This document shows, in pieces, positions 1,172 through 59,094 of a DNA stretch of 64,000 bases (position 1 is its first letter; every line of letters starts with the position of its first letter). Origin of the DNA: Deltaproteobacteria bacterium (GTDB lineage: Bacteria; Myxococcota_A; Polyangia; JAAYKL01); NCBI GenBank assembly GCA_030595125.1, contig JAUVDV010000021.1:5338-69337 (forward strand). Direction: 5' to 3'. A program made the translations under genes and the position numbers. Below the pieces are notes generated by a model. That model was not told where the DNA came from, made no database searches, and saw nothing but the letters and a program-made list of their open reading frames with translations.

Positions 1172-2377
1172 CTAGAAAAGGTCGTCGATGTCGTCCTTGG
1201 AGCCCTTATCTTCTTTCTTGGGCGCGGGCTCATCTTTATCTTTCTCTTTTTCTTCGCTTCCCTTCTTTTTCTTGTACTTGCCGGTGACCGAATGAGTTGA
1301 GTCGACCTTGGTTGCGCCCGGCCCCGTCTGCGCCTCACCGGTGTAGCCGTCGATCACCGAGGACTGGTGGTCGGTGAGTCCTTCCCCACCACCGGAGGTC
1401 ACCGAGTCGACCATGCTCGAGATGTCATCCGCAACCGCACCCGTGTCGCGGCCCTTGTTTGCTCGGAGATCGCCCAGGTACGTGGCCGTAATCGCTGCGG
1501 AGAAGCGGAGTCCGTAGGCGCCGAAGAAGGCTGAACGATCAATGCCGTCTGCATAGGTATCCTCGTCGCGCCATGCGACCTTGTCCAGGTCGCCCTTGCT
1601 GTCGAAGGATTCCTGGCCCTCGACCCCGAAGCGTCCCTCCAGGGAGCCGAGGAAATCCATGAAGCTGATGTCGGTCTGGAACGAGTCCTTTCGAAAAGCG
1701 CGCAGGCGCTTCCAGAAGCGACCGTCGATGAAGAAAAGGTACTCCACGTACTTTCCGGCATCCCAGACCAGCATGGATTCGTCGTTGTTATGCGTGAACT
1801 CATCGGAGATCATGTGTGACTCAAAGCCTGTGCGCTGACCCTTGAACTCCACGAAGCTCCTGGTCATCCTGGAGAGTTCCCGGATCATTTTGGTGCGGAT
1901 GGCGTCCTCTGCCAGCGCGTCTCCGGCAGCTGCGGACAGTTCTTCCGAGTAGGTATCCCTTACCCTGAACTCGAAGATGGATACCACCTTCCGGACGGTC
2001 ATGCCCCACATGAGGCCCTCCATCTGATCCGCGATTCCGTCCGTGTAGGGGATCGCCGGCGCGCTGCCGCCCTTTTTCCCCTTTTTCCCCTTCTTTTTCT
2101 TCTTTCCCTTTTTCTTGGCTTGCTTCACCGGTGGGGCCTCACCGTACTGGGAACCCGGGATTATCAGCGCCTCGTCGTCCTCCGTGAGGGCGGAGGTCAA
2201 GCTGCTTCCGCCGCCACCACCGCCGCCGATATTGGGTGCGTCGAACGGTTTGGAGTCCTTCTTGGCGTCGTCTCCCGTTGAGATCTCGACTTTCGCCTTG
2301 CCGCCTCCGCAGCCCACGGAGATGAACAGCGTGGCGATAATGACGATAAATACCTTTAACCCAGTTCTTTCGATCAT
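1172..2377 (-). CDS. hypothetical lipoprotein with Lys-rich tracts
   Basis: 401-aa ORF. Signal peptide plus lipobox (LFISVGC). Gly run and KKKGKKKKKGKKGKK tract. No recognisable catalytic motif. Confidence 0.55.
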   Translation of the reverse strand: MIERTGLKVFIVIIATLFISVGCGGGKAKVEISTGDDAKKDSKPFDAPNIGGGGGGGSSLTSALTEDDEALIIPGSQYGEAPPVKQAKKKGKKKKKGKKGKKGGSAPAIPYTDGIADQMEGLMWGMTVRKVVSIFEFRVRDTYSEELSAAAGDALAEDAIRTKMIRELSRMTRSFVEFKGQRTGFESHMISDEFTHNNDESMLVWDAGKYVEYLFFIDGRFWKRLRAFRKDSFQTDISFMDFLGSLEGRFGVEGQESFDSKGDLDKVAWRDEDTYADGIDRSAFFGAYGLRFSAAITATYLGDLRANKGRDTGAVADDISSMVDSVTSGGGEGLTDHQSSVIDGYTGEAQTGPGATKVDSTHSVTGKYKKKKGSEEKEKDKDEPAPKKEDKGSKDDIDDLF

Positions 2378-2477: not shown

Positions 2478-3695
2478 CTAGTTTGACAATGCCGCTCGTT
2501 TCCTGTCGGCCTTTACCGTGGGGAGAAGGACGCGCGCCATCTTAACCGATTGGGATTCGTCCGCGTAAAAGGTGTCCCAGGCATACTGGTACATCTTCTG
2601 GAGCTTGTCCGGCGACATCTTCGCGGGCTGAACGATCACCTCGCCGGCCGTGTAGCGTTTCCAGTCCTTGTGCAGTATCCGTCCCTGGGATTCGTAGTCG
2701 TCGAACGCCTTGGTATGGGGGAAGGGTGTTATCACCGTGAACTCGGCCAGGTCCATTTCGATTTCGAGGAGGAAGTCGACGAGTCGCTTTATGTAATCCT
2801 CATCGTGATCGTCCAGGCCCAGGAGGATTGTCCCCTCCACGAATATGCCGTGATCCTTGAGCCGTCGAATACGCTTTTTGATGAAATCTGAGGTATCGAA
2901 GACTGCCTGGTACACCCACCATTGACCCGCTTTTACGGCGGCCTCGAGCACATCGTCGTCGTCCTCCACCGGGTGCGAGATGATGTGTCGATCGAGGGGA
3001 GCCAGGGCCTCGAAGAGTTCGAGTTCCCACTTCTTGTCCTGGGCCAGGGAATTGTCGACGAAGAAGAGCTTGGAGTTGGGTATGGATTTGACCTCCTCGA
3101 CCACCTTGTCGATCGGGCGGGGGCGAAAGGACCGTCCGCCCAGATACCTGACGCAGCACGGGTAGCAGTTGAACTTGCAACCCCTCGATGCGTGAATCAG
3201 ATCGGGCATCTGCAGGCCGCGGTAGGCGTACTTCTCGCGATCGAGAATAGAGCGGCGCGCCGTCCCGACGGTCTCGATCGGGGCGGGATCGTTGAGGTAG
3301 TTGTAGACCTTGCGGAGTTTTCCGGCCTCCAGGTCGGCCAGGACTTTCTCTGTACGGCCCTCCGCCTCTCCGAGGAAAACCGAGTCCGCGTGTTCTGCGG
3401 TCTCCTCGGGGTGGAGCGCGGTTGAGATGCCTCCGAAAATCACCGGGATGCCTCGCCCTCGAAACTCGTCCGCGATCTCCCATCCTCGGGGCGCCTGGCA
3501 GGTGAGCATCATGGAGATGAACACCACGTCCACGTCCTGAGTGAAATCAATTTTTTCCACGTTCTCGTCGGTGAAGAGCAGCTCGTGCTCGTCGGGAATC
3601 GTGGCGGCAAAAACCACGGGACCGTGCGGGGGGAGGTGGAACTCTCGCTGATTGGGCAGCTTGGGCCATCTGGGGTATATCAGTCGAATCTTCAT
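2478..3695 (-). CDS. B12-binding-domain radical SAM protein
   Basis: N-terminal cobalamin-binding-like region (VVFISMMLTCQAP...GIPVIFGG) followed by a radical-SAM CxxxCxxC-type cluster (CKFNCYPCC). Start taken at MKIRLIYP. Confidence 0.7.
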   Translation of the reverse strand: MKIRLIYPRWPKLPNQREFHLPPHGPVVFAATIPDEHELLFTDENVEKIDFTQDVDVVFISMMLTCQAPRGWEIADEFRGRGIPVIFGGISTALHPEETAEHADSVFLGEAEGRTEKVLADLEAGKLRKVYNYLNDPAPIETVGTARRSILDREKYAYRGLQMPDLIHASRGCKFNCYPCCVRYLGGRSFRPRPIDKVVEEVKSIPNSKLFFVDNSLAQDKKWELELFEALAPLDRHIISHPVEDDDDVLEAAVKAGQWWVYQAVFDTSDFIKKRIRRLKDHGIFVEGTILLGLDDHDEDYIKRLVDFLLEIEMDLAEFTVITPFPHTKAFDDYESQGRILHKDWKRYTAGEVIVQPAKMSPDKLQKMYQYAWDTFYADESQSVKMARVLLPTVKADRKRAALSN

Positions 3696-3836
3696 GCACG
3701 ACTTATAGATCGACGCTTCGGTCCGGGCAATGGAGTCAGTGCGCATTTTTCACCGGAGTCCGTCATGTTTTTTTACTTATTGAACAGTGCATAATCCACA
3801 ATGCAGGTGTAGTATTTTGGCGAAGGAGGACAATAT

Positions 3837-4536
3837 GATTGGAAAAGAATTATTGTGGGGTGCGCTGTTATGCGCGGGTCTGATCGCGGCTGTGCCGTAT
3901 TTCACGGCCTGTGATGGCGGCGATGGTAGAGATAGTTCGGGTGATTCGGACGCCGACGCCGACAGTGGAACTGACACGGATACGGAATCGGATACGGAAT
4001 CGGATACGACACCCGTGTGCCCCGACTACGATTGGGGCCCGGCAAGCGGATTGACCCTCAACGAGAATATTGGGAACTGGACCTTCAACGGATACTTCGA
4101 TGAGAACGCCAACTGGGTGGTCGATCCGGAGGAGGAGGTGGAGAAAACCTTCACGATGGAGGAGATCGCCTGCTATTCTGGCGCCCAGTCGCTGGTCATA
4201 CTGCTGGATGACTTGTCGTGACCATATTGCCCTGATTGGTTCAATCAGTTTGCCCAGGTTTACGCAGAGCTATTCGCCGAAGACAACGGGGTTGTCCTCT
4301 TCGCCGTGACCTCCGGGATCGGCGCCAATTCCCCGGCCATGAACCTTGTAGCCGAGCAGGCGCGCAAGCATTTCCCGGGCGCCTATTTCACAAACACCAG
4401 GCTCCTGACCCTGACCGGCTCGGGCGCAGTTCCTTTCGGCGCCGTCATCGATCTGGAGACTCTCGAGGCCATCGAGATAGGGCCCACCAGCCCGTATAGT
4501 ATTCTCCAGGCGGTCAAGGCGGCCAACGCCAATTAG
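3837..4536 (+). CDS. TlpA/redoxin-like thiol:disulfide oxidoreductase lipoprotein, probable selenoprotein (in-frame UGA at 4219-4221)
   Basis: ORFs 3787..4221 and 4306..4536 are in the same frame, separated by a single TGA. Read-through gives ...SLVILLDDLS-U-PYCPDWFNQFAQVYAELFAEDNGVVLFAV..., matching the redoxin pattern (vvLdFWASWCGPCr..P.l..ly..y...gv.vlgv) with U replacing the first Cys of CxxC. N-terminus is a lipoprotein signal (LLCAGLIAAVPYFTAC) plus a TD-repeat linker. Confidence 0.55.
4229..4253 (+). promoter_or_regulatory. bSECIS-like hairpin downstream of UGA
   Basis: 10 nt after TGA: 6-bp perfect stem ctgatt/aatcag (4232-4237 / 4243-4248) with apical loop GGUUC, plus a 2-bp lower stem. 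Loop G lies ~20 nt from the UGA, within the bacterial SECIS spacing range. Confidence 0.45.
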
Positions 4537-4790: not shown

Positions 4791-5555
4791 CTACAGGCCG
4801 AAGCACTCCCAGTCCGAGCCCATGGATGGGGTTGTCTGGCACTCGTTGTCCGAGTTGCAACCGGTGTACAGGCACTCGTTTGAAACGCAGTTGTAATTGT
4901 CCGCGTCATAGGCAGCGCCGCCGCCGCCACCGCAGTCCGCCGGTGTAGTGCAGGGGGCAGCGCAGTACGCGTAACCCGATCCGCCGGGATCCTGGCAGGT
5001 GTAGCCCGAAACCAGCTGATCGCATTCCGAGTTGTTGTTGCACCCTGTGTAGACGCACCCGTTTGAGTTGCAGTCGTAATTGTCCGCGTCGTAGGCCGCC
5101 GAGCCCAGATCGCAGTCGGCCGAGGTGCTGCAGGGTGGCAGGCAGCCGGGGATTCCCCATCCGGAATCAACGCAGACGTAGTTCATGCTGACAAAGACCA
5201 GATCGCATTCGGCGCTGGAGTTGCATCCGGTGTATTCGCAGAAACCGTCGGAGTTGCAGTTGTAGTTGTCGGCATCGGTTATTGCGTTGGAGGTTGCGGG
5301 GACGCAGTTTGCGGCCGTCAAGCAGGTTTGTGCACAGTAGGGGTTATCGGTGTCGGAGTCGGTGTCCGAGTCTGTGTCCGAGTCTGTGTCCGAGTCCGTG
5401 TCCGAGTCTGTGTCCGAGTCACTGTCGGAATCGCTATCGGAATCGCTATCGGAATCGGAACTGCTGTCTCCGGCGCCGTCGGTCTGACAGCCGAAGAAGA
5501 TCAGAGCCGTGGTCATGGAGAATGCGAGGATTCCCAAGATTGTTATCGTCTTCAT
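4791..5555 (-). CDS. secreted lipoprotein with (S/T-D)n linker and four Cys-rich repeats
   Basis: Signal/lipobox MKTITILGILAFSMTTALIFFGC, then SDSDSD...TDSDTD, then four copies of ~AADC..AYDADNY(N/D)C.SNGC.YTGCN..SEC. Start at MKTIT (5555) avoids overlap with the upstream hydrolase. Confidence 0.6.
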   Translation of the reverse strand: MKTITILGILAFSMTTALIFFGCQTDGAGDSSSDSDSDSDSDSDSDSDTDSDTDSDTDSDTDSDTDSDTDNPYCAQTCLTAANCVPATSNAITDADNYNCNSDGFCEYTGCNSSAECDLVFVSMNYVCVDSGWGIPGCLPPCSTSADCDLGSAAYDADNYDCNSNGCVYTGCNNNSECDQLVSGYTCQDPGGSGYAYCAAPCTTPADCGGGGGAAYDADNYNCVSNECLYTGCNSDNECQTTPSMGSDWECFGL

Positions 5556-5560
5556 TTCGA

Positions 5561-6388
5561 TCACTTCCCTTTCATTTCGTCCAAAAACTTCCATATGATG
5601 CGCGACGCCTCGTCTGGATTCTCTTCGACGGGGGAATGGCCGCAATTATTTATGACATGGAGTTCTCCGCCGGGGATGAGGCTTTCCAATTGCCTGCCCA
5701 CCTCCAGCGGGACCAGCGCGTCTTTCTCGCCCCAGAGGATGAGGGTGGGGCAGCTCACTTTTTCGACAATCTCGCCCACCGGTGACGGATTGGCCGTGGC
5801 CCGCAGAGCCTCGAGGGCGGACGCTCTCTTGTCGGCGAAGGTGTCGAACAGTCGGAGTACCTTGCCCCGGTCCATCCGGGAGGAATCAAAGAAAACGTCG
5901 TTCTCAAAATAGTCGACGAACATCTTGCGACCGTACATCCGAAACAATAGCTCGCCCAGAATCGGCTTGAGGGGCAGGCGTCCCTTGAGCGGGACCGGGT
6001 ACGGAAGACTGATAGCATCCACGAGCACCAGGCGCTTCACCCTGTCGGGGTATGTGGCAGCGAGTGTTATTGAGATACCCCCGCCCATGGAGTGTCCCAG
6101 GAGATCGAACCTGTCCAGGCCGAGGGAATCGGCCGTTCCGATCACCGAACGCGCGTACCCGTCCCAGGTGGGTTTGAACGTGCTGCTCGCGGTGGAGTCT
6201 CCGCAGTTCGGCAGGTCGGGGGCGATGGCGCGAATACCTTTGGGTATGCGTTCGCGCAGCTCATTGAAGGTCTCGCCGGACGCGAACAGGCCGTGGATCA
6301 TCAGGAGAGGGTTGCCCTCGCCGGATTCCGACAGGCCGATTTCTCCGTGTGGGGTGGAGATTGTCTTTTTGCTTGCCATGATGCTCAT
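5561..6388 (-). CDS. alpha/beta-fold hydrolase
   Basis: Nucleophile-elbow motif GHSMGG, catalytic His near the C-terminus (CGHSPVEENPDE). Length typical for the family. Confidence 0.75.
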   Translation of the reverse strand: MSIMASKKTISTPHGEIGLSESGEGNPLLMIHGLFASGETFNELRERIPKGIRAIAPDLPNCGDSTASSTFKPTWDGYARSVIGTADSLGLDRFDLLGHSMGGGISITLAATYPDRVKRLVLVDAISLPYPVPLKGRLPLKPILGELLFRMYGRKMFVDYFENDVFFDSSRMDRGKVLRLFDTFADKRASALEALRATANPSPVGEIVEKVSCPTLILWGEKDALVPLEVGRQLESLIPGGELHVINNCGHSPVEENPDEASRIIWKFLDEMKGK

Positions 6389-7819: not shown

Positions 7820-8006
7820 GGCCAGGTGGAAAGGAGGCATCGTTTGGGGAGAGTGAACTTGTGGAGGGGCATAGTCAATGAAGACCTTGTCGTACCAGAT
7901 GCGGAGTATGGTTTACAAAAAACCAATCACGTTGTTTCGAGCTTGGTGATAAAATGTCGTTAGAGAGGATGCAGCTTGTTCGGGTTTGGTTTTTTGGTGG
8001 GAAAAA

Positions 8007-9971
8007 ATGAAGAAGAAAACCCTGTTAATTTTGCTGTTCGTTTGTTCGATGGGCGTTGGGGCCGTTGCTTGCTCGAAGAGTCACGGCAACGACGATCCGG
8101 ACGGCGGAGACGCATCGACGGATACTGACACGGGCACGGATACTGACACGGATACGGGGGAGGAGTGGTGTCCGAAACTGGAGACTTCCTGCGAGGCGCC
8201 GGAAGAACTGGAGGTCTGTGATGTCGTCAAGCTGGGCGCGCCTAGGTTGATCTTCCCGCTGTCGGGCAGGCACATCAGGGATCGACGACCGCAGATTATC
8301 TGGGAGGAGGCTGACGGCGCAACGCAATACCGGCTGGAGATCGCCCGGGACCGCCAGTTTACAGATGTTGTTTATCGCTCTGCCGATAACGAGCCGTACC
8401 CAGGATACGACGACCGGCTGCATCACATCGTGAGCTGCGACCTCGACTGCGGTGTTCACTTCTTTCGCGTCAAGTCTGTGACCTCGCCCGAGTGCGAGTC
8501 GGGAGCGTCATCGTACACGTGGGAGATGTTTGTAGGCATGGCCCCCGGCGACCTCGACCGCGACGGCGTGCCGGACATTATGTACTGGAAGATCATCGAA
8601 CCCGGAGGGGAGATGCAGCCGTACCTTGTTCAGGGCTGGGCATTCTTCGACCTGGACGAGAAAGGCGGGCAGGTTGCTGAAGCGGAGAAGGTCGTGGAGT
8701 TCGAGGTTGAGGGCAGCACAATCGTGCTCAAGGGTTCTACATATCAAGGAGATGTAAACGGAGATGCCTCTACAGATGTTAGCGTGGAAATTATTTTCCT
8801 GGATGCGGCGTATGAATTTGAAACCGCAATAATTGAAACGTATGTGTTTAGCCAATTGCGTTCGGGAGTTTTACAAGGAAAGAATGATGCTATTGGATTG
8901 TTTCAAGGAAGTGTAGGACAACTTTACAATACTTTGTACTCAAACAGATATTCGGACGTCAACGGTGACGGCTATTCAGACATAGCGATTTCATTTTACG
9001 AAGATTATGGAGACACTGGATTCACAGACAAATTGTTGATTTTCTATGGGACTACTGAGACCGTTTCGGTTTTGGACTTGTCAACCGCCGACGTAGTCAT
9101 TCCGTGCCCCATAGGATGCGACTCGGATACAAACTTTGGCAGGCCGGCTAGCCAGGTAGACATCAACGGCGACGGTTTTGCAGACTTGTTCTCAGCATTG
9201 GTGGAATATTCATCCGGTATTTTCGACGCGGGATTATCACACAGCGCGATTATCTTCGGCGATGAGAATTTGCAATCGCAAGTAGATGTGATGACAGAGG
9301 GAGCCATTATTTCATCCCCTCAGTATTCGATCATCTCTGGCGTTTGGGATCTTGGGGATTCTGTATTTCTCGGAAGTGGAGCCGTCAATCCAATGGGTGA
9401 CATTGATTTTGACGGCTATCCTGAGTTGGGCGGGTACCTGCTCGATGCATATGACACAACACAATCTCCACTTGTGGAGACCGGCGGGTGGGTGGTTTTC
9501 GATGACTTTTTCGGATCAGGCCAGCATATGTTACCGGACGTGATGGATACTATTATCGTGGCAGATTTTGACACATACATTGACTATTCAAACACAGAAA
9601 CTATTAGTTTTAATCATCCTTCTGGAGATGTCGATGGGGATGGCATTGATGATTTCATTTTGCTAACAGGACAGGCAAACTCGGGTTCTCCCACTTATCC
9701 GGGACGATATTTCTATCTGTATGGTGAAGAAGACTGGGATGATTTCATCCCTTTGTCTACCATTTCTGCAAATGAGGTTATTATCCCAATCGATGCTTTT
9801 TGCTTGGTAACAACCGACATTGATGGTGACGGAATAGCAGAGTCTATTGGGGCGAGTACATCAGGGAATCACACTGTACAGCTTTCCGCATCTGGGGAAA
9901 CAGTTGAACTTAACTGGGACTGGTCGGATGCCGTCGATTTCTACGGGCCGGTAATTCCAGAAATTTACTAA
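8007..9971 (+). CDS. secreted lipoprotein with TD-repeat linker, FN3-like region and FG-GAP/VCBS-type Asp-rich repeats
   Basis: MKKKTLLILLFVCSMGVGAVAC lipobox; DASTDTDTGTDTDTDTGEE linker; repeated DVNGDGYSDIAI / DINGDGFADLF / DVDGDGIDDFIL / DIDGDGIAESIG calcium-binding-like loops. Confidence 0.7.
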   Translation: MKKKTLLILLFVCSMGVGAVACSKSHGNDDPDGGDASTDTDTGTDTDTDTGEEWCPKLETSCEAPEELEVCDVVKLGAPRLIFPLSGRHIRDRRPQIIWEEADGATQYRLEIARDRQFTDVVYRSADNEPYPGYDDRLHHIVSCDLDCGVHFFRVKSVTSPECESGASSYTWEMFVGMAPGDLDRDGVPDIMYWKIIEPGGEMQPYLVQGWAFFDLDEKGGQVAEAEKVVEFEVEGSTIVLKGSTYQGDVNGDASTDVSVEIIFLDAAYEFETAIIETYVFSQLRSGVLQGKNDAIGLFQGSVGQLYNTLYSNRYSDVNGDGYSDIAISFYEDYGDTGFTDKLLIFYGTTETVSVLDLSTADVVIPCPIGCDSDTNFGRPASQVDINGDGFADLFSALVEYSSGIFDAGLSHSAIIFGDENLQSQVDVMTEGAIISSPQYSIISGVWDLGDSVFLGSGAVNPMGDIDFDGYPELGGYLLDAYDTTQSPLVETGGWVVFDDFFGSGQHMLPDVMDTIIVADFDTYIDYSNTETISFNHPSGDVDGDGIDDFILLTGQANSGSPTYPGRYFYLYGEEDWDDFIPLSTISANEVIIPIDAFCLVTTDIDGDGIAESIGASTSGNHTVQLSASGETVELNWDWSDAVDFYGPVIPEIY

Positions 9972-13630: not shown

Positions 13631-14641
13631 GTGGGCGTTACCTTCAAGCAGATCCTTTCCGATCCTGTAATAGACGAGCGCTGGAATAGGGTAAAAAAGT
13701 ACTTTTTCCTGCGCGAGTCCACTTACGACATGACCTGTCGTTGCAACCTCAAGTGCGAGGGTTGCTATTACTACATCGGCGACAAACAGTACGCTAAGGA
13801 CGAGATGGACACGGGCAAGTGGCGCGCGCTTCTCACTGCGGAGAAAGAGCGGGGAATCACATTCGTCGTCCTCGCCGGCGCGGAGCCGTCTCTCGTGCCC
13901 GAGCTTTGCAAGGTCTGCTACGATGTCATTCCCCTGGGCGCCATCGCCAGCAACGGGTTGAAGCCATTTCCCAAGGATATCGGATATCGGATTCACATCT
14001 CCGTATGGGGCGACGACGAGGAGTCCAAAAAGTTTCGTGGACGGGCCTGCCTCGACCAGCAACTAAAGAGCTACGGTGGTGACGAGCGGGCGGTCTTCGT
14101 CTACACGTTTACAAAGCGAAATATCGACCAGGTCGACTCGGTGGTGGAGCGAATTGCGGCGTGTGGTGGAAAGATTCACTTCAACATGTTCTCGCCGACG
14201 GGCGGCTACACGGGTGAGCTCACCATGGACGCAGACGCTTTTCACCGCACCCGCGACAAGATGCTGGAGATGCTGGATCGGTATCCGGAGACGGTCCTCT
14301 ATTCCGGTTACAACGCCGAGGTTCACACGGATCCGGAGCGCTCGCTGCACGCCCGGTTCAAGTGCCCGTACCCGCGCTGCAACCCCGACACCAGGCTGGG
14401 GCTCGGTCGCAGCTTTCGCCAGTACCGATCGGACCTGACCTGGGATCGTTCCGTGGCCTGTTGTGTGCCGGATACCGATTGCCACGACTGTCGTCACTAC
14501 GCGGCCGGATCGGCCATCGTGACGGCCCGAATGGCGCAACACGTGAGCAGCGAACTAGAATTCAAAAAGTGGCTGGACTATGTGGACACCTACCTGGCCG
14601 TGTGGGTACAGGGCTATGAAAAAGGGACCAATCTGTGCTGA
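13631..14641 (+). CDS. radical SAM protein (paralog 1), C-terminal Cys-rich auxiliary region
   Basis: CNLKCEGCYY (CxxxCxxC); GAEPSL motif; C-terminal CPYPRC...CCVPDTDCHDC cysteines. GTG start 7 nt after the ACP stop. Confidence 0.75.
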   Translation: MGVTFKQILSDPVIDERWNRVKKYFFLRESTYDMTCRCNLKCEGCYYYIGDKQYAKDEMDTGKWRALLTAEKERGITFVVLAGAEPSLVPELCKVCYDVIPLGAIASNGLKPFPKDIGYRIHISVWGDDEESKKFRGRACLDQQLKSYGGDERAVFVYTFTKRNIDQVDSVVERIAACGGKIHFNMFSPTGGYTGELTMDADAFHRTRDKMLEMLDRYPETVLYSGYNAEVHTDPERSLHARFKCPYPRCNPDTRLGLGRSFRQYRSDLTWDRSVACCVPDTDCHDCRHYAAGSAIVTARMAQHVSSELEFKKWLDYVDTYLAVWVQGYEKGTNLC

Positions 14642-15645
14642 CCATAAACAATCTCATCCAGGACGAGGACACGCGTCGCAAGTACCATGATATAAAGACC
14701 ATGGTCGGATCCAGCGGAATGCGCAGTTCCATCTACGACGTCAACAATATCTGCAATCTGCGCTGCAAGGGTTGCTTCTATTTTTCCAGCGACCAGCACA
14801 AACTGGACGACCAGAAAGATCTCGATGTGCTTCAGGCATTCATCGAAAGAGAGAAGGCGCGAGGCGTCAACTACGCCATCCTCATCGGAGGCGAGCCGTC
14901 CCTGACCCTGGATCGCCTCGACGTCTGGTACGCAAATGTAAAATGCTCATCCGCTACCAACGGCATCAAGAAGATCGAACGGGATCGCTATCCTGATATG
15001 CGCGTGGGGATTTCCCTGTGGGGCGACGAGGAAGACGAGATCAGGTTGCGCGGCAAGAACACTTTCCTCATATCCCGGCAAAACTATCGCAACGACCCGA
15101 ACGTCTATTACCTGTACACCGTCACGGCGCAGACCATCGGCCAGATGGAAACCGTAACCAAGAAGATCGAGGAAGCGGGGCTGCGGGTTCACTACCAGCT
15201 GTTTTCCAACGATCAAGGTGAGGAAGGGATGGACTGGACCGAGGATCTTTACAAGGAGGTCCGTGACAACATGGACGCGATGCTCGACAAGTATCCGCAC
15301 GTTGTCATCTCGTCCAAATACTATCACGAGGTTCTCACCACCCAGACAATGTTAGGTCGGCGTTTCGGATGGATGGAGTGCCCGTCAGTTTCTGATGCCG
15401 TGGACAATCGCGATCCTCGACCCAAGAGGCTCGCCGGTTTCAACTCCTACGGATCGGACTACAAAACTGTCCACCGTTGCTGCACCTCTGTCACCCGCGA
15501 CTGCGCCACCTGTCACGACGGCGCCGCCACCATGTCGTGGGTAATGGTCAACAAGCGCGAGCACATGACCGACCCGGTGGACTTCGCCAACTGGGTGGAC
15601 GTCACCCACATGTTTGCAAAGCTCTACGAGTATATTCCCTGGTAG
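14635..15645 (+). CDS. radical SAM protein (paralog 2)
   Basis: CNLRCKGCFY; GGEPSL; C-terminal HRCCTSVTRDCATCHDGAA; clearly paralogous to the upstream gene. GTG start overlaps the upstream stop (GTGCTGA). Confidence 0.75.
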   Translation: MLTINNLIQDEDTRRKYHDIKTMVGSSGMRSSIYDVNNICNLRCKGCFYFSSDQHKLDDQKDLDVLQAFIEREKARGVNYAILIGGEPSLTLDRLDVWYANVKCSSATNGIKKIERDRYPDMRVGISLWGDEEDEIRLRGKNTFLISRQNYRNDPNVYYLYTVTAQTIGQMETVTKKIEEAGLRVHYQLFSNDQGEEGMDWTEDLYKEVRDNMDAMLDKYPHVVISSKYYHEVLTTQTMLGRRFGWMECPSVSDAVDNRDPRPKRLAGFNSYGSDYKTVHRCCTSVTRDCATCHDGAATMSWVMVNKREHMTDPVDFANWVDVTHMFAKLYEYIPW

Positions 15646-25931: not shown

Positions 25932-27461
25932 ATGAAAATCACAATGAAAAAAAAGAAATCAGCTCTCTTCCCGTTGACTTGTGCTTTGTTACTCGCGGCC
26001 TTCGCCTGGAACGGGTGTGGCGGTAATGACGACGAGGGGCAAGAGGCGCAGGGCCACTCGGCTTCCATTGCGGACACGGCTGCCGGCGGTGACGCGTCTG
26101 TTTCTGTTAAGCAAAAAGGGACGGTACGCAACGATGCTGATGCGCAACCGAAGAGCGACAAGGTGATCATGGTGGTGGTCGACGCCCTGCGTGCGGACGG
26201 GCTCGGCTGCTACGGGTATTCAAAGGACACATCCCCCACCATCGACAGATTAGCGAAAGAAGGGATCCTGTTCGAGCGAATGCACTCGGCATCTCCGTGG
26301 ACTGCTCCGTCGTTCGGCACTTTCTATACCGGCGTGTCACCGACCGTGCACGGGGCGGGAAGTATGCTCGCCAGGGGATCATCAAAGGGAACGACTCTGT
26401 TCGGCGTGACGGTGGGCGGCATCCGCAAGGACCTTCCAACGTTGCCTAAACTCCTGCCTGCGAAGGTTCGCAAGGGCGCCATTATCAACAACTCGTTCGT
26501 GTCAAAGGAGCTCGGGTTCGCGCGGGGGGTGGATGATTTCAACCACAAGATCGCTCATCTCACCAGGTATCGCACGGCGGACGAGGTGACCGACATAGCG
26601 GTAAAATGGCTGGAGGAGCACAAGGATGGCCCGTTCTTTCTGATGGCTCATTATTTCGATCCGCACATCCAGTACGGTCCTCCGAAGAAGTACCTGGCGC
26701 AGTTCGCGCCGGACAAACCGAGAAGGATTGCGTACCCCTTTGTGGATCACCACCCGGCGCGGGACGGCACGCTGAAGCCCAACGACGCCGAGAAGGCGTA
26801 TATTCGCGGCCTGTACAACGGAGAGGTCAGGTTCACCGACGATCAGATCGGCGTGCTCATCGGGACCATGGAGAAGATGGGGTTGATGGACGATACCTGG
26901 CTCATCATAACTTCTGACCACGGAGAGGAGCACTTCGATCACGGAAGCTTCGAGCATGGCCACCGATACGAGGAGGAGGTGGTTCGCGTTCCGTTCATCG
27001 TGAGGGCTCCGGGCGGCAAGTGGAAGGCGGGCACGCGGATTGCGGACCCGGTCTCACACGTCGATATCCTGCCGACGGTCCTCGATCTCTATTCCGTACC
27101 CTCACTTCCTCACTTCGAGGGCAGCTCCATGCTTCCCCTTGTCGACGGAAAGAAGCGCCCGGATCGCACATCGTACATGGAGTTCAACCTGTTCAAGGGG
27201 CAGCAATGCGCACTGTTCGACGGGCGCTACAAGGTCGTCTGGGATTTTCGCAGAAATCGGGCGTTCATGTACGACCTGAAAGAAGATCCCGGAGAGCTGA
27301 CAAAACTGGGGAAAGAGCACCCCATGTACGAGGGGATGCTGAAGCGCGTAAAGGCCAGGCGGGAAGAACTGACGCGACAGGCCAGGGGCAAGGTGTTCGA
27401 CAAGGGCGAGCTCTCTCAGGAAGCCGCCGATGCCCTGAAATCCCTGGGATATATAAAATAG
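25932..27461 (+). CDS. sulfatase-family (alkaline-phosphatase superfamily) lipoprotein, Thr-nucleophile variant
   Basis: MVVVDALRADGLGCYG...HSASPWTAPSF aligns with the sulfatase signature S-x-P-x-C-x-P-S-R, but has Thr at the fGly position and Phe for Arg. Confidence 0.7.
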   Translation: MKITMKKKKSALFPLTCALLLAAFAWNGCGGNDDEGQEAQGHSASIADTAAGGDASVSVKQKGTVRNDADAQPKSDKVIMVVVDALRADGLGCYGYSKDTSPTIDRLAKEGILFERMHSASPWTAPSFGTFYTGVSPTVHGAGSMLARGSSKGTTLFGVTVGGIRKDLPTLPKLLPAKVRKGAIINNSFVSKELGFARGVDDFNHKIAHLTRYRTADEVTDIAVKWLEEHKDGPFFLMAHYFDPHIQYGPPKKYLAQFAPDKPRRIAYPFVDHHPARDGTLKPNDAEKAYIRGLYNGEVRFTDDQIGVLIGTMEKMGLMDDTWLIITSDHGEEHFDHGSFEHGHRYEEEVVRVPFIVRAPGGKWKAGTRIADPVSHVDILPTVLDLYSVPSLPHFEGSSMLPLVDGKKRPDRTSYMEFNLFKGQQCALFDGRYKVVWDFRRNRAFMYDLKEDPGELTKLGKEHPMYEGMLKRVKARREELTRQARGKVFDKGELSQEAADALKSLGYIK

Positions 27462-29584: not shown

Positions 29585-30538
29585 TCAAGGCCCATCCGGC
29601 CAGTCTCTGGCGCAGCGGAAGCCGGACATTATCATCCTCCACCCACCGGGATGATGAACCCTGTTGGATGCTCGCAATCCCCATGGAAAGTAATTGAAAG
29701 CGCCACCCCTCAGCACGTACTCGCAGTCGGTGGGGATGGGGTTGGAGCCGGTGAAGCCCTGCAGCCCTTCTTTTCGGAGCATGTCCTGGGTGCGTTTGAT
29801 CTCACTACAATCGGCGGGGATTCCCCTGTCGGCGGTCGGTCGCATGTATGCGTGCGGATCGTAGTGATCCGATGTCCACTCCCAGACGTTTCCCGCCAGA
29901 TCCAGATGACCGTACGGGCCGGCGCCCTTCGGTTTACTGCCCACGTTCGCAGTGACGTTTTGCAGGTGTACCGCGTGTCGTCCGGTGGGCTCCTCGTTTC
30001 CCCATGCGTACATGCGGTTGTCCGATCCTCGGGCGGCCCGCTCGAACTCCGCCTCGCGCGGCAGGCGCTTTTCCTTCCACTTGCAATAGGTGGCGGCGTC
30101 TTGTTGGGATACCGAGGATACGGGGCGCTTCGGTGTTCTGAACTCCGATTCCTGTGCGAATTTGGTTTTGGAGTTGTCGACCCTTTTGGGTTTTCGGCAG
30201 ACGCCGGCGTCCACGCACTCCATGTACGCTTTGTTGGTAACTTCGGTCTTGTCCAGGAGGAATGGGGCGACGGTGACCTGGTGCTCGGTGCGTTCGTCTC
30301 TGATGGCGCGTTTGTGGTTGAGGCCCATTGTGAATGTTCCGCCGGGGACGCCGAGCATTCCCTCGGGTGTACTATCGCCCGCCCGCTCGACAGACGCTCC
30401 CTCCAGGCTTTTCGGAACTCTCATACCGACGCGGCCTACTATTCCCTTTTTTTGTGATACGGGCTTGCCCGCCGGTTCGACGTTTTTCTTTTCCTCGGGA
30501 GGTGGCGAACTGCAGGAGACCAGAAGAAAGACACACAT
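29585..30538 (-). CDS. FGE-sulfatase (SUMF1/EgtB/PvdO-like) domain lipoprotein
   Basis: MCVFLLVSCSS lipobox; GTFTMG...VTVAPFLLDKTEVTNKAY...HLDLAGNVWEWTSD...RGGAF motifs of the formylglycine-generating-enzyme fold. The Arg-rich 5' extension of ORF 29585..31384 is out-of-frame overlap with the next gene. Confidence 0.75.
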   Translation of the reverse strand: MCVFLLVSCSSPPPEEKKNVEPAGKPVSQKKGIVGRVGMRVPKSLEGASVERAGDSTPEGMLGVPGGTFTMGLNHKRAIRDERTEHQVTVAPFLLDKTEVTNKAYMECVDAGVCRKPKRVDNSKTKFAQESEFRTPKRPVSSVSQQDAATYCKWKEKRLPREAEFERAARGSDNRMYAWGNEEPTGRHAVHLQNVTANVGSKPKGAGPYGHLDLAGNVWEWTSDHYDPHAYMRPTADRGIPADCSEIKRTQDMLRKEGLQGFTGSNPIPTDCEYVLRGGAFNYFPWGLRASNRVHHPGGWRMIMSGFRCARDWPDGP

Positions 30539-30567
30539 TGCGAATGACAGTCTGGTGAGATGAAAAA

Positions 30568-31743
30568 TCACTTCAGCGCTTCGGTGCCGGCCTTTGAGAA
30601 ATCGCGTCCCCAGCAGATGCGATCGTGGGCCTCTTTTGGAAGCGAAGTCTTGCCGTCGACGGCGAGGGAGGCAACCTCCTGCCCGACCCCGGGGCCGAGC
30701 ATGAACCCCTGACCGCACATCCCGACCGCCAGGGTGAGCCCCTCGATTTGTGGCACGTTGTCGATGATGGGAACCCCGTCCGGGGTCATTGGATAGCACC
30801 CCCGCCAGACGCGCCTGACGAGCAGGTGCCGCATCCTGGGGATCAGGGATATCATACGGGCGGCGAGGATCGGCAAGAACTCCGAGAGGGATTCCCGGTT
30901 GTTGCCGATGAAGAGATCCTTTGGGGTGTAGCAGAAGATGATCTGTCCCTCGTCGTTCTGGCCGAAGTAGAAGTTGACTGTCTTTCCATCCGGACCCGGC
31001 CGCATGTCGACCACCAGGGGTTCGAGAAAACGTTCCACGGGCGCGGTGATCCCCGCCTCGTGGGAGTCGGGTTGAACGGGGATGTCGATACCCAGAAACT
31101 CGCCGTCCTGCCGGGCGTCGGAGCCGGTTGCCACGATAACCATAGGCGCTTCGTAGCTCCCCTTGTCGGTCCTGACGCCGCGAATCTTTTTCCCGTCGAT
31201 GTTGTAGCCGATCACCTTCTCGTTGAACCGGAACTTTGCGTCCAGTTCCATGGCCGCGCGCTGGAACGCCACCGGAACCTTGAGCGGTGAGAGCTGGCCG
31301 TCGTTGGGAGAGTAGGTTCCGCCTCGCAGACCCTTGCGCTCGATCCCCGGGACCAGTTCTGCCATACCGTCCGCGTCCACCCATTTAATTTCCAGGTTGT
31401 ATTTGTGTTGAATGGGGAACAGCCCGCGAAGGGTTTTTTCGAGGGGTTCGTCGTAGACGGGGAATGCGTAGCCGCCGGTCTTCCAGCCCACGTCGCTTCC
31501 GTGGGTCTCCTTCCATGTGGACATCTGGGCGAGACTTCGACTGCAAAGGACTATCTTGGCCGGGTCGGAGTGGGTCGCGCGTATTCCGCCGATGGCTGTT
31601 TTGTTGTCCCCCTGGCCGACGGCGGGACGACGATCCAGGACCAGGACCTTCAGGCCGCGCAGCGCCAGGTTGTATGCGCTCGGGACGCCGACGCTGCCGC
31701 CGCCCACCACGATCGCGTCGTAGGTTTTAGTCGGCATCGCCAT
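30568..31743 (-). CDS. FAD-dependent oxidoreductase, DAO family (OoxB/HcnC/sarcosine-oxidase-beta/proline-DH-beta-like)
   Basis: N-terminal dinucleotide fold YDAIVVGGGSVG; DAO-type architecture; C-terminal GxGxxG...G motif. Start overlaps the upstream gene stop by 17 nt. Confidence 0.75.
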   Translation of the reverse strand: MAMPTKTYDAIVVGGGSVGVPSAYNLALRGLKVLVLDRRPAVGQGDNKTAIGGIRATHSDPAKIVLCSRSLAQMSTWKETHGSDVGWKTGGYAFPVYDEPLEKTLRGLFPIQHKYNLEIKWVDADGMAELVPGIERKGLRGGTYSPNDGQLSPLKVPVAFQRAAMELDAKFRFNEKVIGYNIDGKKIRGVRTDKGSYEAPMVIVATGSDARQDGEFLGIDIPVQPDSHEAGITAPVERFLEPLVVDMRPGPDGKTVNFYFGQNDEGQIIFCYTPKDLFIGNNRESLSEFLPILAARMISLIPRMRHLLVRRVWRGCYPMTPDGVPIIDNVPQIEGLTLAVGMCGQGFMLGPGVGQEVASLAVDGKTSLPKEAHDRICWGRDFSKAGTEALK

Positions 31744-33796: not shown

Positions 33797-35502
33797 CGGT
33801 CCGCCTGCCTTTCCGCATCAGAGGCAGCCGCCGGGTCGGAGGCCAGAACGGGTTGCACGTGAGAGTTTCTCCAGGAGCCTTTGCGCAACAGGAGGAGGTA
33901 CTGGATCAACTCCGAGAGATCGCCCGTCTCGACAATATCGATGTCGTTGTCCTGAGCAGTTGTCAGGCGCTCGCGAAGGATCGCGATCTCTTTTGGGGGA
34001 AGCGCGAGTTGCAGATTGATCTGGGGCATCGGCCCGATGTGAACGCCCCTTGATTTGCTTGCCTCCAGATCTTTGCCGAGTATCGCCGGGAGTCGCGCAG
34101 GCTCAAGCAGGTGCCCCAACAGGATATCGAGATACGGAATGGCGCCTGCGTCGACGGAGCCTTTCGCCGATTTTGCTGCCGGGATCTCGTGGCTGTCGAG
34201 CCAGGCTTTTCCGTCGATGCTCAGCTCGTCGCGTTCGCATAGCCATCGGGTGACGGCCAGGGCGTCGTCCATTCCGTCCAGGGCATGATCGATCGGGAGA
34301 GTGGTTTTCAGGGGTGTTGGATCCGTGGCTTTTAAAAAATCCGCGATGGCGATGGTCGGCCCCTGCAGTCCGGGCAATGGCTCCACGAATTGCACACGTC
34401 CCTCGCCGAGGCCCACAAGACGGGCCAGGCGCTCCATCTGCTTGACTGTGTAACGCGCGTGTTTTTCCGATCCGTCCAGTTTGCATGTGGACTCGTGTCT
34501 CCCCATGACCAGTACCCCGTCATGACCTCTGGCGAGGGCGCCGATGAGCATTGCCGGGGTCACGCCCCCCACGCAGGGAAGCTCCATCACGTGTGCTCCG
34601 TCGGGGATAGTGGGCGAGGTCGGGATTTTGAGGGCAGACCTGCCGCACGCGATAACAAGGATACCCCCTGAGTTTTTGGGAAGATCCCTTGATGCGCGCG
34701 GTTGGGCTATTGCGCCGGTCGGGCACGCGGCCACGCAGACACCGCAGCCCCGGCACGCCTCCCGATCGATCGTGGAGACCGGCATTGCTCCTTTTTGCAG
34801 GACCACACGGGGAACTCGAAAGGGGCACGCCTCTTCGCAGGCGCCGCAACCCCGGCATTTTTCTGTCTCCACGCCGCAGACCGCGACGGGGAACTCCCGC
34901 TCCCAGATCTCGTAGACGCCGCCCTCGCGCCGATCCTTTATGTGCCCGGTGGGACACACGGAGGCACAGGATCCGCACCCGACGCAATCCTCGGGGGGCT
35001 TGTTGTCGAAGGTTCCGACCACCTTGTCGGAGCCCCGGTTAAGGGTTGAGATCGCGCTGGTGGCGTAGGTTTCGCAGACCCGGGTGCACATCCCGCACAG
35101 GATGCAGGTTTCGTCGCCCTCGGTGAAACGGGACTCGACGACGCCGAGCTTGAGCGCGAGCTTGCGAATCTCGGGGACGTTCGGGCAGCGGGCGAGCAGG
35201 GCCTCCATGGTCATGCGGCGGTATTGCACGACCTCCTGTGAGGCGGTGCGAAAGACCATCCCCTCGTTCACCGGGTAGTTGCACGCCGTGACAAATTTAC
35301 TCCATCCGTCGCGAACGTGCTCCACGATGCAAAGCCTGCAGGCGCCCGCCGGTTCGAGGGCGTCGTGATGGCAGAGGGTGGGGATGGAGATTCCCATGCG
35401 AGACGCCACGCTCAACAGGGAGGCGCGGTACGGAGCGGATATTTTGTGACCGTCGATGGTTATGGAAACAAGCTTTGTGGATTTATTGTCCATCGTGTTC
35501 AT
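33793..35502 (-). CDS. NuoG/HndD-like [2Fe-2S]/[4Fe-4S] protein fused to an MvhD/FlpD-like domain
   Basis: N-terminal ISIPTLCHHDALEPAGACRLCIV (NuoG-type 2Fe-2S); several CxxCxxCxxxCP clusters; ILVIACGRSAL...ELPCVGGVTPAMLIGALARGHDGVLVMGRHESTC matches the MvhD fold pattern. ATG at 35502 overlaps the nuoF-like TGA (ATGA). Confidence 0.7.
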   Translation of the reverse strand: MNTMDNKSTKLVSITIDGHKISAPYRASLLSVASRMGISIPTLCHHDALEPAGACRLCIVEHVRDGWSKFVTACNYPVNEGMVFRTASQEVVQYRRMTMEALLARCPNVPEIRKLALKLGVVESRFTEGDETCILCGMCTRVCETYATSAISTLNRGSDKVVGTFDNKPPEDCVGCGSCASVCPTGHIKDRREGGVYEIWEREFPVAVCGVETEKCRGCGACEEACPFRVPRVVLQKGAMPVSTIDREACRGCGVCVAACPTGAIAQPRASRDLPKNSGGILVIACGRSALKIPTSPTIPDGAHVMELPCVGGVTPAMLIGALARGHDGVLVMGRHESTCKLDGSEKHARYTVKQMERLARLVGLGEGRVQFVEPLPGLQGPTIAIADFLKATDPTPLKTTLPIDHALDGMDDALAVTRWLCERDELSIDGKAWLDSHEIPAAKSAKGSVDAGAIPYLDILLGHLLEPARLPAILGKDLEASKSRGVHIGPMPQINLQLALPPKEIAILRERLTTAQDNDIDIVETGDLSELIQYLLLLRKGSWRNSHVQPVLASDPAAASDAERQADR

Positions 35503-58975: not shown

Positions 58976-59094
58976 GGGCGATGCCGGCAAACATATTCCC
59001 AATTCGTGCCCCCCTGAATGTGTTAATATCGTCAAATACAAAAACAAAGATGGTGGCGACAGGAATTCGCCGCGCTTCATGGGGAGGAAATCTC

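What the first reader, a model, noticed from the sequence alone, without database searches (positions are those of the whole stretch)
3837..4536. Probable selenocysteine-containing TlpA/redoxin-like lipoprotein (U-P-Y-C motif) with bSECIS-like hairpin, split into two ORFs by the caller
ORFs 3787..4221 and 4306..4536 share a frame and are separated only by TGA (4219-4221). Reading through gives one thioredoxin-fold protein in which UGA sits exactly where the first Cys of the CxxC redox motif belongs: ...LVILLDDLS-U-PYC-PDWFNQFAQVYAELFAEDNGVVLFAV..., compared with TlpA/ResA ...vLdFWASWCGPCr.e.P.l..ly.ey...gv.vlgv. A hairpin lies 10 nt downstream: 6-bp stem CUGAUU/AAUCAG, loop GGUUC. Geometry and G-containing loop are compatible with bacterial SECIS elements. 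Thiol:disulfide-oxidoreductase-type selenoproteins are known in anaerobic Deltaproteobacteria, so the family is not new. This instance is unannotated, lipid-anchored with a TD linker, and sits next to a divergently transcribed B12-radical-SAM gene. It also implies the genome encodes Sec machinery.
Basis: partly seen in the sequence, partly recalled or inferred. Interest (0 to 1): 0.8.

Follow-up and report, generated by a model that had tools for sequence, protein, structure and literature searches.

The report
New selenocysteine thioredoxin-fold lipoprotein family
One gene (3835-4536) that gene callers split at an in-frame TGA almost certainly encodes a membrane-anchored, exported redox protein with selenocysteine in its active site; it founds a small, unannotated family of a well-known kind of selenoprotein.

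Summary
A single reading frame runs from ATG 3835 to TAG 4536 and is interrupted only by TGA 4219-4221. Every relative found has the same TGA: 12 distinct DNA sequences and about 20 protein clusters that end one residue before it. In all of them the frame continues into homologous sequence. Full-length relatives have Cys at exactly this column (CPYC, CPNC, CPSC, CALC, CQAC, CIFC, CPPC).

No Pfam or NCBIfam model covers the family, and only 22 clusters were found among 5.8 billion. TGA is an ordinary stop for 12 Pfam-supported genes in the window.

Sec machinery (selA, selB, selC, selD) was not found in the window and could not be searched in the rest of the genome. The substrate is unknown. 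Verdict: a well-supported new selenoprotein family of a known kind, of moderate interest.

The parts
3824..3829 (+). Ribosome-binding site AGGAGG, 5 nt before the start codon
   Evidence: Read directly from the sequence. Orthologues start at the same ATG.
3835..4536 (+). Complete selenoprotein gene: 233 codons including Sec129, with stop TAG at 4534-4536
   Evidence: Single frame with one internal TGA. The same structure is found in L001-L008, L010, L011, L013 and L015-L017.
3835..3912 (+). Lipoprotein signal peptide ending in the lipobox F-T-A-C (Cys26, TGT 3910-3912)
   Evidence: Identified by inspection of the sequence. A lipobox Cys preceded by a hydrophobic stretch is kept in family members such as GLAAC, VLAAC, LALSC and GLPAC. 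No signal-peptide predictor was available.
3913..4011 (+). Acidic, low-complexity Asp/Thr/Ser/Gly linker (residues 27-59)
   Evidence: The model has pLDDT below 55 here. Length varies between orthologues.
4012..4533 (+). Thioredoxin-fold domain (residues 60-233) of the peroxiredoxin/ResA/TlpA structural type
4219..4221 (+). In-frame TGA, read as Sec129, the first residue of the U-P-Y-C redox motif; the partner Cys132 is at 4228-4230
   Evidence: Invariant TGA in 12 distinct sequences. It aligns with Cys in 7 of 8 full-length homologues in alignment A3, and P0025 (CPPC) is one more. Further clusters end exactly before this column.
4232..4248 (+). bSECIS-like hairpin: 7-bp stem (4232-4238 paired with 4242-4248) and a GUU apical loop, or a 6-bp stem with a GGUUC loop; 17 or 16 nt lie between the UGA and the loop
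   Evidence: for the fold. Covariation: 90.5% of cells paired, 5 of 7 pairs with compensatory changes, 0 of 500 shuffles reaching the observed score. RNAalifold predicts the same helix. Consensus criteria are from PMC13188914.
4306..4536 (+). The 'second ORF' of the gene callers, which is an artefact; it is the C-terminal part of the same protein
   Evidence: Called starts differ between orthologues (products of 83, 97 and 76 aa). No Shine-Dalgarno sequence precedes 4306. Residues 130-157 lie upstream of that start and align with the Cys homologues.
2478..3746 (-). Divergently transcribed B12-binding radical-SAM gene; a neighbour, not shown to be a functional partner
   Evidence: Pfam Radical_SAM and B12-binding matches. 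Synteny is kept only in close orthologues.

Best explanation
Window 3835-4536 is one gene for a lipoprotein. It has an N-terminal signal peptide with a lipobox Cys, an acidic flexible linker, and a thioredoxin-fold domain of the ResA/TlpA/peroxiredoxin type. The redox motif is Sec129-Pro-Tyr-Cys132.

During translation the UGA at 4219 is recoded as selenocysteine. The hairpin 10 nt downstream (4232-4248, with a G-first apical loop) acts as a bacterial SECIS element. It would bind SelB carrying Sec-tRNA(Sec) and so compete with release factor 2.

The finished protein is exported, lipid-modified at Cys26 and tethered on the extracytoplasmic face of a membrane. There the exposed selenolate, in the position of the attacking N-terminal Cys of a CxxC motif, attacks a disulfide or another oxidised sulfur in a substrate. 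Cys132 resolves the resulting selenenylsulfide. This makes the protein a selenium-dependent thiol-disulfide reductase or exchanger, analogous to ResA, TlpA and CcmG.

Shown here:
- the single conserved frame;
- the conserved TGA;
- Cys in homologues at the same column;
- the covarying hairpin;
- the fold.

Inferred:
- actual Sec insertion;
- export and lipidation;
- a structural disulfide between the invariant Cys62 and Cys113;
- the direction of electron flow, the electron donor and the substrate.
For: (1) TGA is invariant in 12 distinct DNA sequences whose proteins are down to about 30-40% identical to the window protein. It is always followed in frame by x-x-Cys and, where the contig reaches far enough, by about 100 homologous codons.

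(2) Searches of 1.84 and 5.8 billion proteins found full-length homologues with Cys at that column: CPYC, CPNC, CPSC, CALC, CQAC, CIFC and CPPC. They also found 8 clusters at 50% identity and 10 further clusters at 90% identity that end exactly one residue before it. The Sec form L011 and the Cys form P0007 are 56% identical.

(3) In the 70 codons upstream of the TGA, variable sites among close orthologues fall at codon positions 1/2/3 as 4/3/25. Downstream of position 4306 the counts are 4/3/12. The 28 codons in between have no stop codon or indel.

(4) The hairpin is 90.5% paired across the alignment, against 14-43% when the 3' partners are slid by 1-3 columns. Five of 7 pairs have compensatory double changes. 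The covariation score is 0.517 against 0.238 for shuffles, with 0 of 500 shuffles reaching it. RNAalifold finds the same helix on its own. The compensatory changes even alter amino acids (D..NQ, G..NL, S..SS, G..SQ). The W-F dipeptide, whose codons TGG TTC supply the GGUUC loop, is kept in 10 of 12 Sec forms but only 2 of 9 Cys-type forms.

(5) The geometry meets the bSECIS consensus: loop of 3-9 nt, stem of 4-16 bp, G in the first two loop positions, 16-37 nt spacing (PMC13188914).

(6) The one Cys-form DNA available (L018) has no hairpin in that register.

(7) TGA terminates 12 Pfam-supported genes in the window, so the organism has no genome-wide TGA reassignment.

Against: No selA, selB, selD or tRNA-Sec was found in the 64-kb window or the fetched loci. 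The rest of the genome could not be searched, so the organism's ability to make Sec is assumed, not shown.

In the window sequence the hairpin is thermodynamically weak. The hairpin alone is -6.3 kcal/mol. The 47-nt context is -9.7 kcal/mol with z = -0.79 against shuffles.

Two of the 12 Sec forms (L011, L012) do not keep the hairpin in register and offer only alternative stem-loops.

The absence of a hairpin in Cys forms rests on a single sequence. Rfam has no match.

Confidence: 0.85

Rival explanations
1. The UGA and hairpin direct insertion of cysteine rather than selenocysteine. This would use a tRNA-Sec-like tRNA-Cys with a UCA anticodon (selC*) and a second SelB copy (selB*), a system described in some deltaproteobacteria.
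For: PMC5389517 reports selC* tRNA-Cys(UCA), selB* and cysS* in Syntrophobacterales and Desulfobacterales, and shows opal-to-Cys translation in an E. coli test system. The nearest named relatives of this window are MAGs labelled 'Deltaproteobacteria bacterium'. All the sequence evidence (conserved UGA, SECIS-like hairpin, Cys homologues) fits this reading equally well.
Against: No selC*, selB* or cysS* gene is seen in the window. In PMC5389517 the genomes with selC* also carried the full Sec apparatus, so ordinary Sec insertion remains the default. Decoding of natural targets as Cys by this system has not been demonstrated.
Confidence: 0.05
2. Two separate genes, or a disrupted pseudogene. Translation stops at TGA 4219, giving a 128-residue lipoprotein, and the downstream part is untranslated or made from its own start at 4306.
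For: Automatic gene callers annotated it this way in every assembly. The window hairpin alone is not statistically unusual.
Against: A nonsense mutation would not be kept at the same codon in 12 divergent sequences and about 20 clusters with the downstream frame intact. Cys homologues are single ORFs spanning both halves. Half a thioredoxin fold, cut between strand 1 and the active-site helix, would not fold. Called downstream starts differ between orthologues, and no RBS precedes 4306. The stem covaries.
Confidence: 0.04
3. A genuine selenoprotein, but acting as a peroxidase (a peroxiredoxin-like Sec enzyme that reduces peroxides at the membrane surface) rather than as a thiol-disulfide oxidoreductase.
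Confidence: 0.15
4. TGA is reassigned genome-wide to a sense codon (for example Gly or Trp), so no special recoding signal is needed.
For: One family member (P0015) has Trp at this column.
Against: Twelve genes in the window with Pfam-supported domains end in TGA. No other in-frame TGA has coding-like sequence on both sides. P0015 has also lost the second Cys (WQNS), so it is a degenerate member.
Confidence: 0.01

Closest known systems
ResA / TlpA / CcmG (DsbE) extracytoplasmic thiol-disulfide oxidoreductases (TlpA-like family, Pfam Redoxin/AhpC-TSA clan)
   Different: Sequence identity is only about 10%. The protein is below the Pfam gathering thresholds and has no NCBIfam match. Sec replaces the first Cys. 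The motif is [ST]-U-x-x-C-P rather than W-C-x-x-C. There is an extra invariant Cys pair (C62, C113). The anchor is a lipobox plus acidic linker rather than a transmembrane helix. No cytochrome-maturation or CcdA/DsbD genes lie nearby.
Known thioredoxin-fold UxxC selenoprotein families listed in PMC13188914: Prx-like thiol:disulfide oxidoreductase (PF00578), thiol:disulfide interchange protein (PF13098), thiol-disulfide isomerase-like and TlpA family (cd02966), Redoxin family (PF08534)
   Same: Same fold class and the same UxxC placement of Sec. The same type of evidence applies (Sec/Cys pairs plus a bSECIS). The source organisms are labelled Deltaproteobacteria, and anaerobes formerly classed there are among the richest in selenoproteins.
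   Different: This family does not reach the thresholds of PF00578 or PF08534, and none of the NCBIfam selenoprotein models matches it. Membership of cd02966 could not be tested because CDD was not available. In the samples found, Sec forms outnumber Cys forms, whereas the review says Cys homologues are usually far more abundant.
E. coli fdhF-type bacterial SECIS element
   Same: A hairpin immediately downstream of the UGA, inside the coding region, with a small apical loop starting with G followed by U, and the minimum allowed spacing of 16-17 nt.
   Different: The stem is short (7 bp) and, in the window sequence, AT-rich. No bulged U is evident. SelB binding is untested. No Rfam model matches.

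Membership tests
Bacterial selenoprotein gene (Sec-UGA with bSECIS) | In-frame UGA conserved among orthologues, with coding sequence conserved on both sides | tested here: met
   TGA is invariant in 12 distinct sequences and the frame continues for about 100 codons. The codon-position pattern of variable sites is given.
Bacterial selenoprotein gene (Sec-UGA with bSECIS) | Cys-containing homologues that align Cys with the UGA | tested here: met
   P0007, P0008, P0010, P0011, P0012, P0023 and P0025 have CxxC at that column, and P0009 has CxxT.
Bacterial selenoprotein gene (Sec-UGA with bSECIS) | Downstream stem-loop fitting the bSECIS consensus: loop 3-9 nt, stem 4-16 bp, G in the first two loop positions, 16-37 nt from the UGA, MFE <= -7.5 kcal/mol | tested here: met
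   7-bp stem, GUU loop and 17-nt spacing. The 47-nt region folds at -9.7 kcal/mol, but the bare hairpin is only -6.3 in the window, against -8.3 to -14.0 in L005, L017, L013 and L016. Covariation is shown.
Bacterial selenoprotein gene (Sec-UGA with bSECIS) | Genome encodes selA, selB, selC (tRNA-Sec) and selD | not testable with these tools
   None was found in the 64-kb window or the fetched loci.
Bacterial selenoprotein gene (Sec-UGA with bSECIS) | Selenium actually incorporated at the UGA position | not testable with these tools
   This needs 75Se labelling or mass spectrometry.
TlpA/ResA/CcmG-like thiol-disulfide oxidoreductases | Thioredoxin fold with the ResA/TlpA/peroxiredoxin-type extensions | tested here: met
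TlpA/ResA/CcmG-like thiol-disulfide oxidoreductases | C-x-x-C redox motif at the N-terminus of helix 1, and a conserved Pro before strand 3 | tested here: met
   U129-P-Y-C132 lies between strand 119-126 and helix 132-150. P200 is invariant in alignment A4. Its cis conformation cannot be tested.
TlpA/ResA/CcmG-like thiol-disulfide oxidoreductases | Sequence match to the family models (Pfam AhpC-TSA PF00578 or Redoxin PF08534) at the curated threshold | tested here: not met
   The window protein scores 13.7 bits against a cut-off of 26. The best family member reaches E = 4e-5 for AhpC-TSA and 0.003 for Redoxin. No NCBIfam model matches. The PDB profile search found nothing meaningful.
Peroxiredoxins (AhpC-TSA / BCP) | Active-site signature PxxxTxxC(U) | tested here: not met
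   The residues before U are ILLDDLS in the window and V(G/A)D(T/S)(T/S) in relatives. There is no Pro at -7 and no Thr at -3.
Bacterial lipoproteins | Signal peptide ending in a lipobox [LVI][ASTVI][GAS]C | tested here: inconclusive
   The N-terminus is MIGKELLWGALLCAGLIAAVPYFTAC, with Phe at -3, which is atypical. Relatives have canonical boxes such as LAAC, LALSC and LAGC. No predictor was available, so this is by inspection only.

The most novel reading that the evidence does not exclude
The conserved UGA and SECIS-like hairpin may be decoded as cysteine rather than selenocysteine. This would use the selC* tRNA-Cys(UCA)/SelB* system described in some deltaproteobacteria. The family would then be a natural target of SECIS-directed Cys recoding, for which no natural targets have been demonstrated. 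A milder novel reading is that this is a lipid-anchored, exported selenoprotein family in which the Sec form is the majority state rather than the exception.
Probability: 0.05. Interest if true: 0.7.

Novelty: new member of a known kind. Interest (0 to 1): 0.4.

Why it matters
The finding corrects a systematic mis-annotation. In every public assembly this gene is split into two "hypothetical proteins".

It also adds a selenoprotein family that no Pfam or NCBIfam model covers. The family has an unusually clean, covariation-supported SECIS element, so it is useful for training selenoprotein and SECIS finders.

It predicts that this uncultured lineage, labelled Deltaproteobacteria, has the Sec trait. 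It also predicts that the cell places a selenol-based redox protein on a membrane surface outside the cytoplasm. That is a testable example of selenium use in the cell envelope.

It does not change the understanding of how Sec is encoded.

Tried and rejected
- **Rfam:** the gathering-threshold search of the whole window and the E <= 10 search of 4100-4400 gave no hit.
- **Pfam and NCBIfam:** scans of the read-through protein gave only sub-threshold hits.
- **PDB profile search:** it gave spurious FimA hits at E about 0.007 and a thioredoxin-like protein at E = 1.3, which is uninformative.
- **Single-sequence AlphaFold:** the model was poor, with pLDDT 44.6.
- **Structure job inputs:** X at the Sec position was accepted.
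- **Foldseek against afdb50:** the library was unavailable.
- **Metagenome scan:** The narrower A5 returned only one new locus.
- **Genome collection scan:** it found only two MAGs.
- **Sec machinery:** tRNA scans of the window and 11 loci found no tRNA genes, and Pfam annotation of about 50 window ORFs found no SelA, SelB or SelD.
- **Other recoded TGAs in the window:** none has coding-like sequence on both sides.
- **Conserved gene neighbours across the family:** the radical-SAM neighbour is restricted to close orthologues, and the upstream lipoprotein of L013/L015 has no homologue in the window.
- **Promoter and terminator scan:** uninformative.
- **DNA for Cys forms:** DNA for the Cys form P0007 and for the Sec forms P0017 and P0019 could not be fetched.

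Full report
**The observation**

On the + strand an ATG at 3835-3837 is preceded by AGGAGG at 3824-3829. It opens a frame that runs to TAG 4534-4536 and contains one internal stop, TGA 4219-4221.

The translation is MIGKELLWGALLCAGLIAAVPYFTAC, then an Asp/Thr/Ser-rich linker, then a domain of about 175 residues containing ...LVILLDDLS-[TGA]-PYCPDWFNQF.... The Sec position is residue 129 and the partner Cys is residue 132.

Ten nucleotides after the TGA lies CUGAUU-GGUUC-AAUCAG (4232-4248). ViennaRNA closes one more G:C pair, giving a 7-bp stem with a GUU loop. So the description is accurate, apart from the start coordinate (3835, not 3837).

Taken alone, the hairpin is not remarkable. The 47-nt region folds at -9.7 kcal/mol with z = -0.79 against dinucleotide shuffles, and the bare hairpin is -6.3 kcal/mol.

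**Is the TGA conserved?**

A word-indexed search of 5.8 billion proteins with the read-through sequence found only five relatives. Four are N-terminal pieces of 123-124 aa that end exactly at the TGA. One is a C-terminal piece.

Their contigs (L001-L008, plus L010 from the genome collection) all show the same structure: TGA at the same codon and the frame continuing to a common C-terminus.

An exhaustive HMMER search of 1.84 billion cluster representatives found more distant relatives of two kinds:
- Full-length single ORFs have Cys at the TGA column: P0007 CPYC, P0008 CPNC, P0010 CPSC, P0011 CALC, P0012 CQAC and P0023 CIFC. P0009 has CQAT and P0015 has WQNS.
- Seven short proteins end one residue before that column (...GDT[ST]).

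For five of the short proteins DNA could be fetched. Each ends in TGA, followed in frame by x-x-Cys and, where the contig is long enough, about 100 homologous codons. A metagenome scan added one more such locus, L017.

A profile search then found only 22 clusters in all. Every one that carries a name is called 'hypothetical protein', and none has a Pfam domain. They include ten further N-terminal pieces ending at ...GD[ST]T and one more Cys form, P0025 with CPPC. In the alignment the unknown residue X aligns with Cys in 7 of 8 full-length homologues.

This Sec/Cys pairing, with conservation on both sides of the UGA, is the standard computational signature of a selenoprotein (PMC13188914).

**Is the hairpin a SECIS element?**

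The 12 distinct Sec-form sequences were aligned without gaps on the TGA. Ten keep a hairpin in the same register with different arm sequences:
- CUGAUU/AAUCAG (window clade)
- CAGGUU/AACCUG (L005)
- CAGAUU/AAUCUG (L008)
- CGAGCU/AGCUCG (L013, L015)
- CUGGCU/AGCCAG (L016)
- CUGACU/AGUCAG (L017)

The pair counts are as follows:

| Measure | Observed | Control |
|---|---|---|
| Cells paired | 90.5% | 14-43% when the 3' arm is slid by 1-3 columns |
| Pairs with compensatory double changes | 5 of 7 | - |
| Covariation score | 0.517 | 0.238 +/- 0.041 in shuffles (0 of 500 as high) |

RNAalifold predicts the same helix without being told.

The compensatory changes occur both within the close clade and between clades, so they represent several independent events. 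They also force amino-acid changes (D..N-Q, G..N-L, S..S-S, G..S-Q), which shows that selection acts on the RNA.

The loop GGUUC is encoded by Trp-Phe (TGG TTC). W-[FY] is kept in 10 of 12 Sec forms but only 2 of 9 Cys-type forms. The one Cys-form gene whose DNA was available (L018) has no hairpin in that register.

Three caveats remain. L011 and L012 do not keep the in-register hairpin and offer only alternative stem-loops 21 and 29 nt downstream. The window's own stem is AT-rich and weak. Rfam has no matching model.

**Alternatives to Sec**

A genome-wide TGA reassignment is excluded. Twelve window genes with Pfam-supported domains end in TGA, and no other in-frame TGA has coding-like sequence on both sides.

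A pseudogene or two-gene arrangement is very unlikely for four reasons:
- The TGA and the downstream frame are conserved in every relative.
- Cys homologues are single ORFs.
- The downstream start codons chosen by gene callers are inconsistent (products of 76, 83 and 97 aa), and no RBS precedes 4306.
- The break would cut a thioredoxin fold between strand 1 and its active-site helix.

One alternative is not excluded. SECIS-dependent insertion of Cys by a tRNA-Sec-like tRNA-Cys(UCA) with a second SelB has been described in some deltaproteobacteria (PMC5389517). I give it about 5%.

The main gap is that no selA, selB, selD or tRNA-Sec lies in the window or the fetched loci. The rest of the genome could not be searched.

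The only organism label available is 'MAG: Deltaproteobacteria bacterium', from the two genome-collection hits. Anaerobes formerly classed as Deltaproteobacteria are reported to be among the organisms richest in selenoproteins (PMC13188914).

**What the protein is**

Sequence models barely see it. For the window protein, AhpC-TSA gives E = 0.063 and Thioredoxin_4 gives E = 0.12. Three of 9 family members hit AhpC-TSA (best E = 4e-5) and one hits Redoxin. No NCBIfam model matches, including the selenoprotein-specific ones.

An AlphaFold2 model built on the 9-sequence alignment is confident in the domain (pLDDT about 90 for residues 61-233, pTM 0.70). Its order of elements is strand 119-126, U129-x-x-C132, helix 132-150, strand 152-159, helix 169-177, strands 201-206 and 211-216, and helix 220-232.

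The peroxiredoxin PxxxTxxC signature is absent. The [ST]-U/C-x-x-C-P motif at the start of helix 1 and the invariant Pro200 before strand 3 are the thioredoxin/ResA arrangement.

Two further Cys residues (C62, C113) are invariant. They may form a structural disulfide, which would fit an extracytoplasmic location. This is an inference.

The N-terminus looks like a lipoprotein signal peptide. Relatives have canonical lipoboxes followed by acidic linkers. This was judged by inspection, because no predictor was available.

**Mechanism proposed**

SelB carrying Sec-tRNA(Sec) would bind the hairpin as the ribosome reaches UGA 4219 and insert Sec. The protein would then be exported, lipidated at Cys26 and held on a flexible acidic tether at a membrane surface.

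There the Sec129 selenolate, in the position of the nucleophilic Cys of a CxxC motif, would attack substrate disulfides. Cys132 would resolve the selenenylsulfide, and an unknown reductant would recycle the enzyme.

The conserved frame, the TGA, the Cys pairing, the covarying hairpin and the fold are shown. Sec insertion, localisation, catalytic direction and substrate are inferred. A peroxidase role is a live alternative, at about 15%.

**Genomic context**

The divergent B12-binding radical-SAM gene (2478-3746, minus strand) is confirmed. With the flanking genes it is syntenic in the close orthologues.

Distant members have other neighbours:
- L011 has a steroid-dehydrogenase-like membrane protein.
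- L013 and L015 have an overlapping upstream Cys-rich lipoprotein.
- The Cys form L018 has FGE-sulfatase and glycyl-radical genes.

So no functional link to the radical-SAM enzyme is supported.

**Comparison with known systems, and novelty**

Thioredoxin-fold UxxC selenoproteins are the commonest kind of bacterial selenoprotein. Several TlpA-like, Redoxin-like, Prx-like and DsbA/DsbG-like families are already listed (PMC13188914).

This family works like those but is not a sequence-level member of any model I could test. It is rare (22 clusters), it is annotated only as hypothetical fragments, and in the available sample Sec forms outnumber Cys forms. Membership of CDD cd02966 could not be tested.

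I therefore rate it a new member (a new family) of a known kind. The evidence is strong, but it would not surprise a specialist.

**Scores**

- Interest: 0.4.
- Confidence that this is a genuine recoded UGA with a SECIS element: about 0.85.

Noticed in passing
window 4216-4218 and the equivalent codon in L001, L005, L006, L008, L010-L013, L015-L017: The codon immediately before the Sec-UGA is always NCG (TCG or ACG) in 12 of 12 Sec-form sequences. The Cys-form gene L018 has AGC there. This may be a context effect on recoding versus termination, or shared ancestry combined with GC3 bias.
   Followed up: no
window 1172-2377(-), 4791-5645(-), 7986-9971(+), 58753-63993(+): Several other predicted lipoproteins or secreted proteins in the window carry long Asp/Thr/Ser-rich acidic repeats (DTDTDSD...). 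These sit right after the lipobox Cys or, in the 1746-aa protein, near the C-terminus. They include a DUF7478 protein and an FG-GAP protein. This appears to be a lineage-wide architecture, not something special to the selenoprotein.
   Followed up: partly
window 56367-58975(+): A Fer4_11 ferredoxin-like gene (56367-56924) is followed, with a 4-nt overlap, by a 684-aa ORF (56921-58975). By eye the ORF resembles a tungsten-type aldehyde:ferredoxin oxidoreductase. The longer minus-strand ORF 56969-57877 is spurious: its GC is highest at codon position 1. The 684-aa ORF was not scanned against Pfam.
   Followed up: no
window 31727-37903(-): A cluster encodes a Fer2_4/Pyr_redox_2 protein, a poly-ferredoxin with an MvhD/FlpD domain, and a NuoE-like 2Fe-2S thioredoxin-like ferredoxin. 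HdrA and MvhD families have known Sec forms, but there is no in-frame TGA here.
   Followed up: partly
L001 10802-12480 and L002 3581-4689: An AbiEi/AbiEii toxin-antitoxin pair sits immediately downstream of the selenoprotein gene in the L001/L002 lineage. It is absent at that position in the window and in L006, so this is a variable insertion point.
   Followed up: no
L013 5315-6004 and L015 5280-5987: In two distant Sec-form loci the gene lies just downstream of a 229/235-aa Cys-rich lipoprotein with an acidic linker and no Pfam match; in L013 the two genes overlap by 4 nt. The two copies are 38% identical to each other, and there is no homologue in the window. It could be a partner or substrate in that sub-clade.
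   Followed up: partly
window 13631-15645(+): Two tandem, overlapping radical-SAM genes of 336 aa each, in addition to the B12-binding radical-SAM gene next to the finding. Sulfatase and FGE-sulfatase genes lie at 25932-27461, 29585-31384 and 40692-42341. An FGE-sulfatase gene also neighbours the Cys-form homologue in L018.
   Followed up: no
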